Assembly: GCF_000027125.1 (NCBI RefSeq)
Contig: NC_017626.1
Strand: one strand, 5' to 3'
Source: Escherichia coli 042
GTDB taxonomy: Bacteria > Pseudomonadota > Gammaproteobacteria > Enterobacterales > Enterobacteriaceae
Length of the DNA stretch: 64,000 nucleotides
In this document: positions 57,391 through 58,391 of the stretch, piece after piece
How positions within the stretch are numbered: the first letter of the stretch is position 1
Layout of the letters: each line of letters begins with the position of its first letter
The notes under the pieces: generated by a model
Databases searched by the model: none
Seen by the model: the letters and a program-made list of their open reading frames with translations, nothing else
What the model was told of the DNA's origin: nothing
Made by a program: the position numbers and the translations under genes

Positions 57391-57485
57391 AGGTTATAGG
57401 TTCCTATAACTATGGTTATCGATATCTATAACTCGGATTATAGTTTACTATAACCATAATTAGCAAAAACTATAACTATAGTTCC
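57391..57485. repeat. Array of CTATAAC / GTTATAG palindromic half-sites
   Basis: At least five copies including the palindromes ataactatggttat and aactatagtt, about 200-300 bp upstream of the gene at 57693. Confidence 0.7.
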
Positions 57486-57692
57486 GCACTGAAACTAATC
57501 TTTAAAACTGGCGAGCATTCCACTCTCAATAAACTTATTCCAGTCACGAATCAATAACGGCTTCAATTTATCCTGTTCTGTGGATGGTTTTCCACTATAT
57601 TAAAACTTTTTCCACTTATTTTTGACTTTGTTATTGACCATAGTGTTTAATCTGTTATGTATTAATAAAAACAATAACAAAAGGAAAATACA

Positions 57693-58391
57693 ATGACACA
57701 AATAGATTTTCAATCTCTTAGCAGTTTATCCCCCTTTCAGCTAACACAGTATATTGATGATCATCTTTTCACTAATGAACAGAAAGTGCAGATATTCGAA
57801 CATTATCACAGCACACATAAAGACACTACCAATATCTATTCGAGAAAAGAAAACATTAAATCTATTAAAAAAGATGTTGATTATGTCCATATGTTCACAA
57901 AAAACTTCCAGCAACTCGCAGAACTTGATATTTCCAAGAATGAGTTGAAGGTTATCGCAAGGATTTTAAACATCATGGAGTTTGGAAACTGCTTTCATAT
58001 ATCGCAAGCAAAGCTATGCCGCGACTTAGATATTAAAAAATCAAATATGTCTCTTGTCTTTAAAAAGCTCAAAAAGAAAGGGATCATTATTGATAAAGAT
58101 GGAGATCTCTTTATGAACTCCAACATATTTCTTAAGGGACAAGCGCATTCTATCAATGCCAAACAACGCCCTAATGTTAAAAAGGCACAGGGATTTAACG
58201 CTAATAATGAACCAGTATTTGATAATGTTTATACATTTAATCAAACAAATGATTCTGACAATCAACCTACAGAAGGAATGACTACATCTGAGCCACCAAA
58301 AACATCTGATAGCTGTTCTAACAAAGAAACAGATCCAGCACTGACGCTGCAGTATCCTAAAACAGAAGAGCCAGCTTATGATGATGTTTAA
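57693..58391 (+). CDS. Winged-helix DNA-binding protein (second Rep-like or regulator candidate)
   Basis: 232-aa ORF; central segment LKVIARILNIMEFGNCFHISQAKLCRDLDIKKSNMSLVFKKLKKKGII resembles an HTH/wHTH region. Confidence 0.5.
   Translation: MTQIDFQSLSSLSPFQLTQYIDDHLFTNEQKVQIFEHYHSTHKDTTNIYSRKENIKSIKKDVDYVHMFTKNFQQLAELDISKNELKVIARILNIMEFGNCFHISQAKLCRDLDIKKSNMSLVFKKLKKKGIIIDKDGDLFMNSNIFLKGQAHSINAKQRPNVKKAQGFNANNEPVFDNVYTFNQTNDSDNQPTEGMTTSEPPKTSDSCSNKETDPALTLQYPKTEEPAYDDV

What the first reader, a model, noticed from the sequence alone, without database searches (positions are those of the whole stretch)
57391..58391. Second wHTH gene with its own upstream array of CTATAAC/GTTATAG palindromes
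At least five half-sites form several palindromes (ataactatggttat, aactatagtt) in about 95 bp upstream of a 232-aa gene that looks paralogous in architecture to the 254-aa Rep-like protein. This could be a second origin, an incompatibility or partition-like control region, or a repressor operator array.
Basis: partly seen in the sequence, partly recalled or inferred. Interest (0 to 1): 0.5.

Follow-up and report, generated by a model that had tools for sequence, protein, structure and literature searches.

The report
Plasmid-type replication origin inside genomic island
The repeats are four evenly spaced binding sites (iterons) next to a replication-initiator gene, both matching the replication module of the small Klebsiella plasmid pIGMS31, so this chromosomal island carries a plasmid-type replication module whose activity is untested.

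Summary
CTATAAC occurs four times on the + strand at exactly 22-bp steps (57404, 57426, 57448, 57470), plus one inverted copy at 57393. That is 5 of the 7 matches in the 64-kb window. Each 22-bp unit is an 18-bp imperfect palindrome, GTTATAG-N4-CTATAAC.

The 232-aa protein is a homologue of RepM, the initiator of Klebsiella plasmid pIGMS31 (45% identity over the winged-helix core, E 1e-35). It also matches the Rep proteins of pHW126 and pIGRK. The pIGMS31 origin iterons have the same core (GTTATAGATTCCTATAAC). There they are published RepM-binding, origin-essential incompatibility determinants.

The array is conserved in Erwinia, Cedecea, Kluyvera, Serratia and Hafnia islands, with invariant cores and variable spacers. 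Diverged island Reps carry four palindromes of a different sequence at a 21-22-bp period.

The 254-aa neighbour is a remote homologue (hhalign E 1.5e-5) with its own four-unit array and its own small-plasmid relatives. The island is ROD21/EARL-like and sits at tRNA-Leu.

Best reading: a pHW126-type Rep/iteron replicon for the excised island.

Caveats:
- Deleting the related SEN1990 in ROD21 gave no copy-number phenotype.
- A common E. coli variant of the island has lost this gene and half the array.

Verdict: new member of a known kind, moderate interest.

The parts
57393..57410 (+). Iteron unit 1: GTTATAGGTTCCTATAAC, the best palindrome (8+8 with a 2-nt centre)
   Evidence: Near-identical to the pIGMS31 iteron GTTATAGATTCCTATAAC. 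Both half-sites are invariant in 7 loci.
57415..57432 (+). Iteron unit 2: GTTATCGATATCTATAAC
   Evidence: Lies 22 bp from unit 1. Both half-sites are invariant in 7 loci.
57437..57454 (+). Iteron unit 3: ATTATAGTTTACTATAAC
   Evidence: CTATAAC is invariant, while the left half and the spacer vary between species.
57459..57476 (+). Iteron unit 4: ATTAGCAAAAACTATAAC, with a degenerate left half
   Evidence: CTATAAC is invariant in 7 loci.
57474..57483 (.). Terminal 10-bp palindrome AACTATAGTT overlapping unit 4
   Evidence: I23. Only partly conserved, as AAC-NNT-AGTT, in other species.
57317..57392 (.). Conserved AT-rich block (22% G+C) directly upstream of the iterons. It holds ACTATATTA twice and ATATTACAG twice and ends in an A-run. 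Candidate unwinding region or 'CR' equivalent.
   Evidence: G+C content, conservation. The motif (A/C)TATTAC followed by an A-run before the first iteron is also seen in pHW126, pIGRK and pIGMS31. The assignment is an inference.
57294..57311 (.). Conserved hairpin GGTGCC-N8-GGCAC just upstream of the AT-rich block. A second copy lies at 57167-57186.
   Evidence: Present in all related islands, including the ICEKp258.2-type locus L015. Function unknown.
57506..57620 (.). Conserved non-coding blocks between the array and the promoter (TGGCG..ATTCCACTCT..TAAACTTATTCCA, then TTTTCCACT twice)
   Evidence: The TTTTCCACT boxes resemble DnaA boxes only loosely and are not strictly conserved. Function unknown.
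57622..57666 (+). Putative rep promoter region (TTGACT-18 nt-TTTAAT). The block ACTTTGTTATTGAC is shared with plasmid pF16KP0064-2.
   Evidence: Read from the sequence. Nearly invariant in 7 loci. The mapped pIGMS31 repM promoter also uses TTGACT. Not experimentally mapped here.
57693..58391 (+). rep gene: 232-aa RepM/pHW126-family initiator homologue. It has an N-terminal helical part, a three-stranded winged helix (about residues 65-148) with the motif FMNSNIFLKG, and a variable disordered acidic tail.
   Evidence: 45% identity, E 1e-35 to RepM; tblastn hits to pHW126, pIGRK, pIGMS31 and pF16KP0064-2; 13 of 26 remote relatives hit Pfam RepL; AF2 model, pLDDT 81.5; winged-helix fold only.
56403..56481 (.). 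Partner array: four CTGACT-N4-AGTCAG palindromes at a 21-bp period, upstream of the divergent 254-aa gene
   Evidence: Conserved in L002, L005, L006 and L017.
55471..56235 (-). 254-aa second Rep-like gene, a remote homologue of the 232-aa protein
   Evidence: hhalign E 1.5e-5. (56-63% identity to the only Rep-like ORF of 2.5-2.9-kb enterobacterial plasmids). (22-bp-phased palindromes upstream of the gene in plasmid L021).
56951..57129 (.). Two near-identical long hairpins (56951-56987 and 57091-57129) between the two modules. Candidate single-strand initiation (ssi-like) signals.
   Evidence: DNA folding z-scores -4.5 and -6.4. (conserved in all related islands, even those with a different Rep and iteron). 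No sequence match to the pHW126-type ssi. The role is inferred.

Best explanation
The array is the iteron set of a pHW126/pIGMS31-type replication module carried by a ROD21/EARL-like genomic island.

Proposed mechanism:
1. Dimers of the 232-aa winged-helix initiator bind the four 18-bp palindromes. These are phased at 22 bp, about two helical turns, so all sites face the same side of the DNA.
2. Together with the adjacent conserved AT-rich block, this forms an origin from which the circular, excised island can be copied. In the plasmid models the mode is rolling-circle and/or theta.
3. The same sites would titrate Rep and act as an incompatibility and copy-control determinant.
4. Rep probably also tunes promoters in the module.

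What is shown here: the repeat anatomy, its conservation, the homology of both protein and sites to an experimentally defined plasmid origin, and the co-variation of site sequence with Rep lineage.

What is inferred: binding, origin firing in this island, and the conditions under which it fires. Candidates are after excision, after transfer, or with a helper plasmid.
For: - **Anatomy.** Four units at an exact 22-bp period, each a palindrome. The clustering is far beyond chance.
- **Protein homology.** 45% identity and E 1e-35 to pIGMS31 RepM over the winged-helix core, with a near-identical recognition helix (KSNMSLVFKKLKKKG versus KSNVSYYFKNLKKKN). tblastn also hits pHW126, pIGRK and pF16KP0064-2, where this is the sole Rep of a 2.3-2.9-kb plasmid. 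13 of 26 remote relatives match Pfam RepL.
- **Site homology.** pIGMS31 iterons are GTTATAGATT(C/T)CTATAAC at 24/22-bp spacing upstream of repM.
- **Published function of those iterons.** CR + IT1-4 + IR1 is the minimal origin. IT1-4 bind RepM in EMSA and are an incompatibility determinant. RepM dimerises (10.1101/2022.12.05.519187). pIGRK behaves likewise (PMC6854812).
- **Phylogenetic footprint.** In 7 loci from 6 genera the CTATAAC half-sites are invariant while the spacers vary.
- **Co-variation.**
  - The Pantoea island Rep (55% identity) has four GGTTATG-N6-CATAAC units at 22 bp. Plasmid pF16KP0064-2 has the same core.
  - The ICEKp258.2-type Rep (29% identity) has four GTTTCC-N4-GGAAAC units at 21 bp.
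  - pIGRK, pHW126 and p49589CZ_2 each have four 22-bp units of their own.
- **Shared flanks.** An A-run precedes the first iteron, and the promoter block ACTTTGTTATTGAC is shared with the plasmids.
Against: - Deleting SEN1990 changed neither ROD21 copy number (1 per chromosome) nor the amount of excised island in laboratory culture. SEN1990 is the RepL-annotated protein at the homologous position of ROD21, and its qPCR primers translate to the same family motifs. The authors concluded it is a transcription factor (PMC10655114). They also conceded that only 3% of cells had excised the island and that post-transfer replication was not tested.
- The commonest E. coli variant of this island lacks the gene and two of the four units. 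The breakpoint is at window 57433, so the module is dispensable for persistence.
- The pHW126-type ssi sequence is absent, and the family's conserved region is only weakly recognisable.
- The protein itself does not reach Pfam RepL or any other threshold.
- The island in this window looks decayed: frameshifted TraD, and IS2 and IS100 insertions.
Confidence: 0.6

Rival explanations
1. Transcription-factor reading. The 232-aa protein is a MarR-like regulator and the array is an operator or enhancer through which it controls its own gene, nearby non-coding transcripts or distant host genes. It has no role in DNA replication.
For: - The fold is a generic MarR-type winged helix.
- Loss of SEN1990 changed oafB expression and had no copy-number effect (PMC10655114).
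- In pIGMS31, RepM represses or activates several promoters of its own module.
- Terminator-like hairpins on the minus strand at 57311-57294 and 57172-57158 leave room for leftward transcripts.
Against: - The array ends about 140 bp upstream of the putative -35, so it does not overlap the conserved promoter.
- The only promoter-like match inside the array (minus strand, 57466-57437) is destroyed in Erwinia and Cedecea.
- SEN1990 deletion did not change expression of ROD21 genes.
- Four phased palindromes identical in core to a plasmid origin, and Rep homologues that are the only Rep of 2-3-kb plasmids, are not explained by a plain regulator.
Confidence: 0.2
2. Relic or plasmid-interference reading. 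The module is a captured small-plasmid replicon that no longer replicates anything. What persists is its side-effect: island-borne iterons and Rep make the host incompatible with, or able to drive, pIGMS31-type plasmids.
For: - The iteron core is identical to that of pIGMS31. In that plasmid both IT1-4 and the repM ORF are incompatibility determinants.
- The module is frequently lost.
- Islands of this family are loaded with defence cargo such as ApeA, AvaI restriction-modification, Thoeris and TIR genes.
Against: - The gene is intact and strongly conserved across many genera. Its recognition helix and C-terminal motif are invariant.
- The cis-elements are conserved base by base, which argues for selection on the whole module.
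- No direct evidence for interference exists.
Confidence: 0.15
3. Partition or centromere reading. The array is a centromere-like site and the 232-aa protein is its binding protein, which stabilises the excised circle.
For: Arrays of phased short repeats upstream of a small DNA-binding protein gene resemble parC/ParR- or stbDR/StbA-type sites. This is established knowledge, not tested here.
Against: - No ParA/ParM/TubZ-type NTPase gene lies in or near the module.
- The protein belongs to an initiator family that is the sole Rep of tiny plasmids.
- The sites match origin iterons.
Confidence: 0.03

Closest known systems
REP module of Klebsiella pneumoniae plasmid pIGMS31 (RepM + iterons IT1-4), pHW126-like plasmid family
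   Same: - Rep homologue with 45% identity in the winged-helix core.
- The same iteron palindrome, GTTATAG-N4-CTATAAC.
- Four units of about 20 bp plus a 2-nt spacer, upstream of rep and preceded by an A-run.
- A TTGACT promoter.
- Low G+C content.
   Different: - Located in a chromosomal island at tRNA-Leu, not on a 2.5-kb plasmid.
- The array is 210-300 bp from the ATG, against about 115-200 bp in pIGMS31.
- No clear IR1/IR2 operator copies at the promoter.
- No pHW126-type ssi sequence, and only a partial conserved region.
- The protein is longer (232 versus 201 aa), with different N- and C-terminal parts.
- A second Rep/iteron module lies next to it.
pHW126 (Rahnella) and pIGRK (Klebsiella) replicons
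   Same: - Same Rep family: 36% and 34% identity by tblastn.
- Four 20-bp iterons at a 22-bp period upstream of rep.
- Rep autoregulation and iteron binding are shown for pIGRK (PMC6854812).
   Different: - A different iteron sequence (GGTTGTCAAAAACGTCAAC).
- pIGRK makes a second in-frame RepR' from an internal start. No evidence for that here.
- Both are plasmids with MOBV- or MobK-type mobilisation.
SEN1990 of Salmonella Enteritidis island ROD21 and its homologues in EARL islands (PMC10655114)
   Same: - Same protein family. The published primers translate to GILVEHH / HLYINSN / FAKGMSHQ, which match the family motif.
- Same island position, with a long upstream non-coding region and a divergent gene.
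- A winged-helix fold.
   Different: - A different lineage. The closest relative retrieved here, P0126, is about 34% identical to the 232-aa protein.
- The paper did not report repeats or the link to pHW126-like plasmids, and concluded the protein is not a replication protein.
Classical iteron-controlled theta replicons (pSC101, F, P1, R6K, RK2; Rep_3 family)
   Same: Arrays of about 20-22-bp phased repeats next to the rep gene, bound by a winged-helix initiator. They also serve in copy control and incompatibility (established knowledge; also discussed).
   Different: - No Rep_3 domain.
- The units are palindromes, suggesting dimer rather than monomer binding.
- No convincing DnaA boxes.
- The plasmid relatives show nicking activity and rolling-circle intermediates.
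Replicating integrative elements (SGI1 rep/oriV, SXT/R391 and ICEBs1 rolling-circle replication, PICI Pri-Rep/ori)
   Same: An integrated element carries its own initiator and origin, used after excision (my own knowledge; the concept is cited).
   Different: The initiator families and origin structures are unrelated. No experiment shows replication of this island.

Membership tests
pHW126-like plasmid REP module (pHW126 / pIGRK / pIGMS31) | Rep protein homologous to the family's initiators | tested here: met
   BLASTP to RepM gives 45% identity over 119 aa, E 1e-35. tblastn hits pIGMS31, pHW126 and pIGRK.
pHW126-like plasmid REP module (pHW126 / pIGRK / pIGMS31) | Four iteron-like direct repeats of about 20 bp with 2-nt spacers upstream of rep | tested here: met
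   Four units at an exact 22-bp period, 57393-57476. The core is the same as in the pIGMS31 iterons.
pHW126-like plasmid REP module (pHW126 / pIGRK / pIGMS31) | Conserved region (CR, about 20 bp) just upstream of the iterons | tested here: inconclusive
   Only ATATTAC plus an A-run aligns with (C/A)TATTACT + A-run of pHW126, pIGRK and pIGMS31. The exact published CR sequence was in figures that I could not read.
pHW126-like plasmid REP module (pHW126 / pIGRK / pIGMS31) | ssi-like palindrome upstream of the CR | tested here: inconclusive
   No match to the family's GAACCGTGAGCA...GTGAAGGGTTGGCC. However, conserved strong hairpins occupy the analogous position.
pHW126-like plasmid REP module (pHW126 / pIGRK / pIGMS31) | Iteron-related IR/DR operator at the rep promoter, and autoregulation | tested here: inconclusive
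   The promoter block is conserved and shared with pF16KP0064-2. Only loose GTTAT/ATAAC half-sites are present. Regulation is not testable here.
pHW126-like plasmid REP module (pHW126 / pIGRK / pIGMS31) | Supports autonomous replication; Rep binds the iterons; the iterons confer incompatibility | not testable with these tools
   Needs cloning, EMSA and incompatibility assays.
pHW126-like plasmid REP module (pHW126 / pIGRK / pIGMS31) | Resides on a small (2-3 kb) extrachromosomal plasmid | tested here: not met
   51 E. coli matches, all chromosomal. No near-identical plasmid match. The locus lies in an island at tRNA-Leu.
Pfam RepL (PF05732) | The protein matches the RepL profile | tested here: not met
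   The 232-aa protein gives no RepL hit. 13 of 26 remote relatives do at E <= 1e-3, so it is a distant relative, not a member by the profile.
Rep_3 iteron initiators (PF01051) | Rep_3 domain, and DnaA boxes in the origin | tested here: not met
   No Rep_3 hit. Only two loose, non-conserved TTTTCCACT boxes.
MarR-type repressor with operator | Winged-helix fold | tested here: met
   AF2 model with pLDDT 81.5. Best Foldseek PDB hits are MarR-like, but none reaches E < 0.01.
MarR-type repressor with operator | The palindromic operator overlaps the regulated promoter | tested here: not met
   The array ends at 57483 and the putative -35 is at 57622. The in-array promoter-like match is not conserved.
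Phage lambda O-type initiator / ori-lambda | Phage_rep_O homology, with the iterons inside the O gene | tested here: not met
   Only weak PHROG hits to 'replication initiation O-like' families (E 1.7e-3 and 0.013). The iterons lie upstream of the gene, not inside it.
Plasmid partition centromere plus centromere-binding protein | An adjacent ParA/ParM/TubZ NTPase gene | tested here: not met
   None among the ORFs or annotations around the module.
EARL (ROD21-like) genomic islands | P4-like integrase, AlpA-type RDF, MOBQ relaxase, TraD and H-NS homologues | tested here: met
   RefSeq annotation of the identical E. coli locus, compared with the ICEKp258.2 gene list.
EARL (ROD21-like) genomic islands | Insertion at an Asn-tRNA gene | tested here: not met
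   This island follows tRNA-Leu. A few published EARL islands also use other sites.

The most novel reading that the evidence does not exclude
ROD21/EARL-type genomic islands of Enterobacterales are cryptic replicons. Each carries one or two small-plasmid Rep/iteron modules; here these are a RepM-type and a second RepL-like type, arranged divergently. The modules fire only after excision, transfer or helper entry.

Because the iteron specificities are shared with free 2-3-kb plasmids (this island with pIGMS31, the Pantoea island with pF16KP0064-2), islands and cryptic plasmids would exchange replicons. They would also exclude or drive each other through iteron incompatibility. This would overturn the published conclusion that SEN1990-type proteins have nothing to do with replication.
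Probability: 0.3. Interest if true: 0.65.

Novelty: new member of a known kind. Interest (0 to 1): 0.5.

Why it matters
**Role in the island family.** ROD21-like islands are widespread in Salmonella, Klebsiella ST258, E. coli and plant pathogens. They carry virulence and anti-phage cargo, yet their extrachromosomal life is poorly understood. The one study of the corresponding protein, SEN1990, dismissed a replication role and did not notice the iterons or the kinship with pHW126-type plasmids.

**A testable hypothesis.** The gene and its repeats can now be recognised as a near-copy of an experimentally defined plasmid origin. That makes it directly testable whether excised islands replicate, which would raise their stability and transfer.

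**A possible island-plasmid interaction.** The shared iterons predict incompatibility or cross-activation between chromosomal islands and small cryptic plasmids.

**Annotation.** Hundreds of proteins now named only 'DNA-binding protein' or 'hypothetical protein' gain a functional annotation.

Tried and rejected
- **Direct paralogy of the two proteins.** BLASTP found nothing. Only the profile comparison shows the link.
- **Library searches with the single protein.** Pfam, NCBIfam and PHROGs gave only sub-threshold HTH_36, DnaD_N and O-like hits. The PDB sequence search gave nothing.
- **First AlphaFold run.** With 17 close homologues the model was poor (pLDDT 51). A 132-sequence alignment fixed this, but the fold search returned only generic winged-helix proteins.
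- **A leftward promoter inside the array.** TTGCTA-18-TATAAT at 57466-57437 was rejected because it is not conserved in Erwinia or Cedecea.
- **Known RNA families.** Rfam finds none in 55100-58900.
- **DnaA boxes and IHF sites.** Nothing convincing.
- **pHW126-type ssi sequence.** Absent.
- **The two long hairpins as MOBQ oriT.** Only TAAGTGC matches the consensus TAAGTGCGCCCT, and only in one copy. A better oriT candidate lies next to mobQ.
- **Search for related loci in representative genomes.** The scan returned only 5 loci, so further loci came from exact-protein look-ups.
- **SEN1990 sequence.** I could not obtain it directly. Family membership was inferred from the published primer sequences.
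Full report
**Observation**

The region reads as the first-stage reader said, but it is more regular than described. CTATAAC (either strand) occurs 7 times in the 64-kb window, close to the chance expectation of 5.6. Five of the seven lie between 57393 and 57476. In 500 sequences simulated from the AT-rich island composition, no 100-bp window held more than two sites.

The four + strand copies start at 57404, 57426, 57448 and 57470, exactly 22 bp apart. Each is preceded, 11 bp earlier, by the opposite half-site:
- GTTATAG at 57393
- GTTATCG at 57415
- ATTATAG at 57437
- ATTAGCA at 57459

The array is therefore four 18-bp imperfect palindromes, GTTATAG-N4-CTATAAC, on a 22-bp period. 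Put another way, it is eight heptamers at 11-bp steps with alternating orientation. A 10-bp palindrome, AACTATAGTT, closes the array at 57474-57483.

The 232-aa ORF runs from 57693 to 58391. The array lies 210-300 bp upstream of its ATG. It is about 140 bp upstream of the most likely promoter, TTGACT-18-TTTAAT at 57622-57651 (read).

**Genomic context**

The window is E. coli chromosome. An identical stretch is present in 11 complete genomes and related stretches in 51 of 5,426, all chromosomal and none on plasmids.

RefSeq annotation of the identical locus shows an island starting at tRNA-Leu. In order it carries:
- a tyrosine integrase
- AvaI restriction-modification genes
- a frameshifted TraD
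- a MobQ relaxase
- ApeA
- IS2
- H-NS homologues
- an IS100-disrupted gene
- a DotA/TraY-family protein
- a 174-aa protein
- the 254-aa protein
- a 1.46-kb non-coding gap
- the 232-aa protein
- a truncated H-NS
- small ORFs
- an AlpA-type regulator

This gene set is that of the ROD21-like (EARL) excisable islands described in Salmonella, Klebsiella ST258 (ICEKp258.2), E. coli and Pectobacterium (PMC6035254, PMC10763509). Those islands usually sit at Asn-tRNA genes.

**What the protein is**

On its own the protein reaches no library threshold. The hits are Pfam HTH_36 and DnaD_N at E about 3e-3 and PHROG 'replication initiation O-like' at 1.7e-3.

Close homologues (55-91% identity) are chromosomal 'DNA-binding proteins' of many Enterobacterales. 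Their helix-turn-helix and a C-terminal motif, GDLFMNSNIFLKGQ, are invariant.

A profile search of 1.8 billion representative proteins found 221 remote relatives. Of 26 sampled, 13 match Pfam RepL at E <= 1e-3.

Translated searches of plasmids then hit the only Rep-like gene of 2.3-2.9-kb enterobacterial plasmids:

| Plasmid | tblastn identity |
|---|---|
| pIGMS31 | 40% |
| pF16KP0064-2 | 55% |
| pHW126 | 36% |
| pIGRK | 34% |

Pairwise BLASTP against pIGMS31 RepM gives 45% identity over 119 residues, E 1e-35. The recognition helix is nearly the same: KSNMSLVFKKLKKKG versus KSNVSYYFKNLKKKN.

With a 132-sequence alignment AlphaFold gives a confident model (pLDDT 81.5, core above 90). It shows an N-terminal helical part, a three-stranded winged helix and a disordered acidic tail. 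Foldseek against the PDB finds only generic MarR-type winged helices, best E 0.012. No structure of this initiator family appears to be solved.

**What the repeats are**

pIGMS31 carries GTTATAGATTCCTATAAC, GTTATAGATTTCTATAAC and GTTATAGATTCCTATAAC at 24- and 22-bp spacing upstream of repM. This is the same palindrome as unit 1 of the window array (GTTATAGGTTCCTATAAC).

For pIGMS31 the following has been shown experimentally (bioRxiv 10.1101/2022.12.05.519187):
- The minimal origin is a 258-bp fragment containing a conserved region, four iteron-like 20-bp repeats (IT1-4) and IR1.
- The iterons are an incompatibility determinant.
- RepM binds them in EMSA.
- RepM dimerises and nicks DNA.
- The plasmid shows both rolling-circle and theta intermediates.

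pIGRK and pHW126 have the same layout: ssi-like palindrome, conserved region, four 20-bp repeats separated by 2 nt, operator repeats, then rep (PMC6854812, PMC2831885). I confirmed the four 22-bp units in their sequences and in p49589CZ_2, where the unit is ATTATGATTTTCATAAT.

**Conservation and co-variation**

In seven loci (E. coli twice, Erwinia, Cedecea, Kluyvera, Serratia and Hafnia) the four CTATAAC half-sites and the first two opposite half-sites are invariant. The 4-nt spacers and the weaker half-sites vary. This is the pattern expected of protein contacts.

Diverged island Reps keep the architecture but change the word:

| Rep | Identity to the 232-aa protein | Array |
|---|---|---|
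| Pantoea island Rep | 55% | four GGTTATG-N6-CATAAC units at 22 bp |
| ICEKp258.2-type Rep | 29% | four GTTTCC-N4-GGAAAC units at 21 bp |

The Pantoea core is the same as in plasmid pF16KP0064-2.

Flanking features are shared too. An A-run lies immediately before the first iteron. A (A/C)TATTAC motif lies upstream of that. The promoter-region block ACTTTGTTATTGAC is common to the window and pF16KP0064-2.

**The neighbouring module**

The 254-aa protein shows no BLASTP similarity to the 232-aa protein. A profile-profile comparison aligns residues 60-165 with 61-157, covering the same winged helix and the 'NP..F.G' motif, at probability 79.6% and E 1.5e-5.

It has 56-63% identical homologues as the only Rep-like ORF on 2.5-2.9-kb plasmids. 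One of these plasmids carries ACTCTAGAGT palindromes at a 22-bp period upstream of the gene.

Upstream of the 254-aa gene the window has four CTGACT-N4-AGTCAG palindromes at a 21-bp period, at 56403-56481.

The island therefore holds two divergent small-plasmid-type Rep/iteron modules. Between them lie two near-identical strong hairpins (56951-56987 and 57091-57129; z-scores -4.5 and -6.4) and two GGTGCC..GGCAC hairpins. All are conserved, even in ICEKp258.2-type islands that carry a different Rep. They occupy the place of the plasmid ssi and conserved-region elements, but they do not match those in sequence.

**Most likely mechanism**

Dimers of the 232-aa initiator probably bind the four palindromes, which all face one side of the helix. 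With the adjacent 22% G+C block (57317-57392), they would open or nick the DNA to start copying the excised circular island.

The same sites would titrate Rep and confer incompatibility. Binding and firing are inferred from homology, not shown here.

**Evidence against**

- *SEN1990.* This is the RepL-annotated winged-helix protein at the homologous position of ROD21. It belongs to the same family, because its published qPCR primers translate to GILVEHH, HLYINSN and FAKGMSHQ (compare). Deleting it changed neither island copy number (one per chromosome) nor the amount of excised island. The authors proposed a role as a transcription factor for oafB (PMC10655114). They noted that only 3% of cells had excised the island and that post-transfer replication was untested. 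They did not mention repeats or pHW126-like plasmids.
- *Gene loss.* The commonest E. coli form of this island has lost the 232-aa gene. Homology to the window stops at 57433, inside the array, leaving two units followed by unrelated cargo.
- *Decay.* The island copy in this window looks decayed.

**Rivals**

- *Pure transcription-factor role.* This fits the fold and the SEN1990 data. It does not fit the position of the array away from the promoter, or its identity with a plasmid origin.
- *Relic or plasmid-interference role.* This is possible, and it is a natural side-effect of shared iterons.
- *Partition role.* This lacks any NTPase partner.

**Verdict**

The feature is real, conserved and confidently identified as a pHW126/pIGMS31-type Rep plus iteron module in a chromosomal island. 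It is a new member of a known kind in an unexpected place. The hypothesis is testable and bears on whether ROD21-like islands replicate, and on whether they interact with small cryptic plasmids.

Noticed in passing
window 56403-56481 and 55471-56235 (-): The 254-aa gene has its own array of four CTGACT-N4-AGTCAG palindromes at a 21-bp period. Its protein has 56-63% identical homologues as the sole Rep-like ORF of 2.5-2.9-kb enterobacterial plasmids. One such plasmid has 22-bp-phased ACTCTAGAGT palindromes upstream of the gene.
   Followed up: partly
window 56951-56987 and 57091-57129: Two near-identical long hairpins (GCAG..GTGATTGT-loop-ACAATCAC..GCTG), 140 bp apart on the same strand. They are conserved in all related islands, including ICEKp258.2-type islands with a different Rep and iteron. 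On the minus strand the first hairpin is followed by TAAGTGC, the start of the MOBQ nic consensus, but the rest does not match. They could be ssi-like signals.
   Followed up: partly
window 57167-57186 and 57294-57311: Two conserved short hairpins, GGTGCC-N8/10-GGCAC. On the minus strand they score as terminator-like. The second sits directly upstream of the AT-rich block and the iterons.
   Followed up: partly
window 57506-57620: Strongly conserved non-coding blocks between the array and the promoter (TGGCG..ATTCCACTCT..TAAACTTATTCCA, then TTTTCCACT twice), with no assigned function.
   Followed up: no
locus L011/L012 8815-8855, corresponding to window 57393-57433: The commonest E. coli variant of the island lacks the 232-aa gene. 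Homology breaks inside the array after two units, and AAA-ATPase, DUF3800 and DUF4365 genes follow instead.
   Followed up: yes
window 38513-38553: Inverted repeat CTATGAACAG-N21-CTGTTCATAG with TAAGTGTGCTG in the loop, between the TraD remnant and mobQ. It is a plausible oriT for the island's MOBQ relaxase.
   Followed up: no
window 58423-58719 (-): A 98-aa ORF matching only the N-terminal oligomerisation part of H-NS/StpA. It resembles the truncated H-NS homologues reported in EARL islands and lies immediately downstream of the rep gene on the opposite strand.
   Followed up: partly
window 51949-54609 (-) and neighbours: A DotA/TraY-family protein and, in intact relatives, a TraW-like protein. 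These are lone type IVB conjugation components in an island that otherwise has only a relaxase and TraD. This may hint at remodelling of a helper plasmid's mating apparatus. Here the TraW-like gene is split by IS100 and TraD is frameshifted.
   Followed up: no
loci L013 (5772-5858) and L015/L016 (5778-5859): Other island Rep lineages carry four-unit palindromic arrays of a different sequence at the same relative position. The Pantoea array has the same core as the iterons of plasmid pF16KP0064-2, which suggests repeated replicon exchange between islands and small plasmids.
   Followed up: partly
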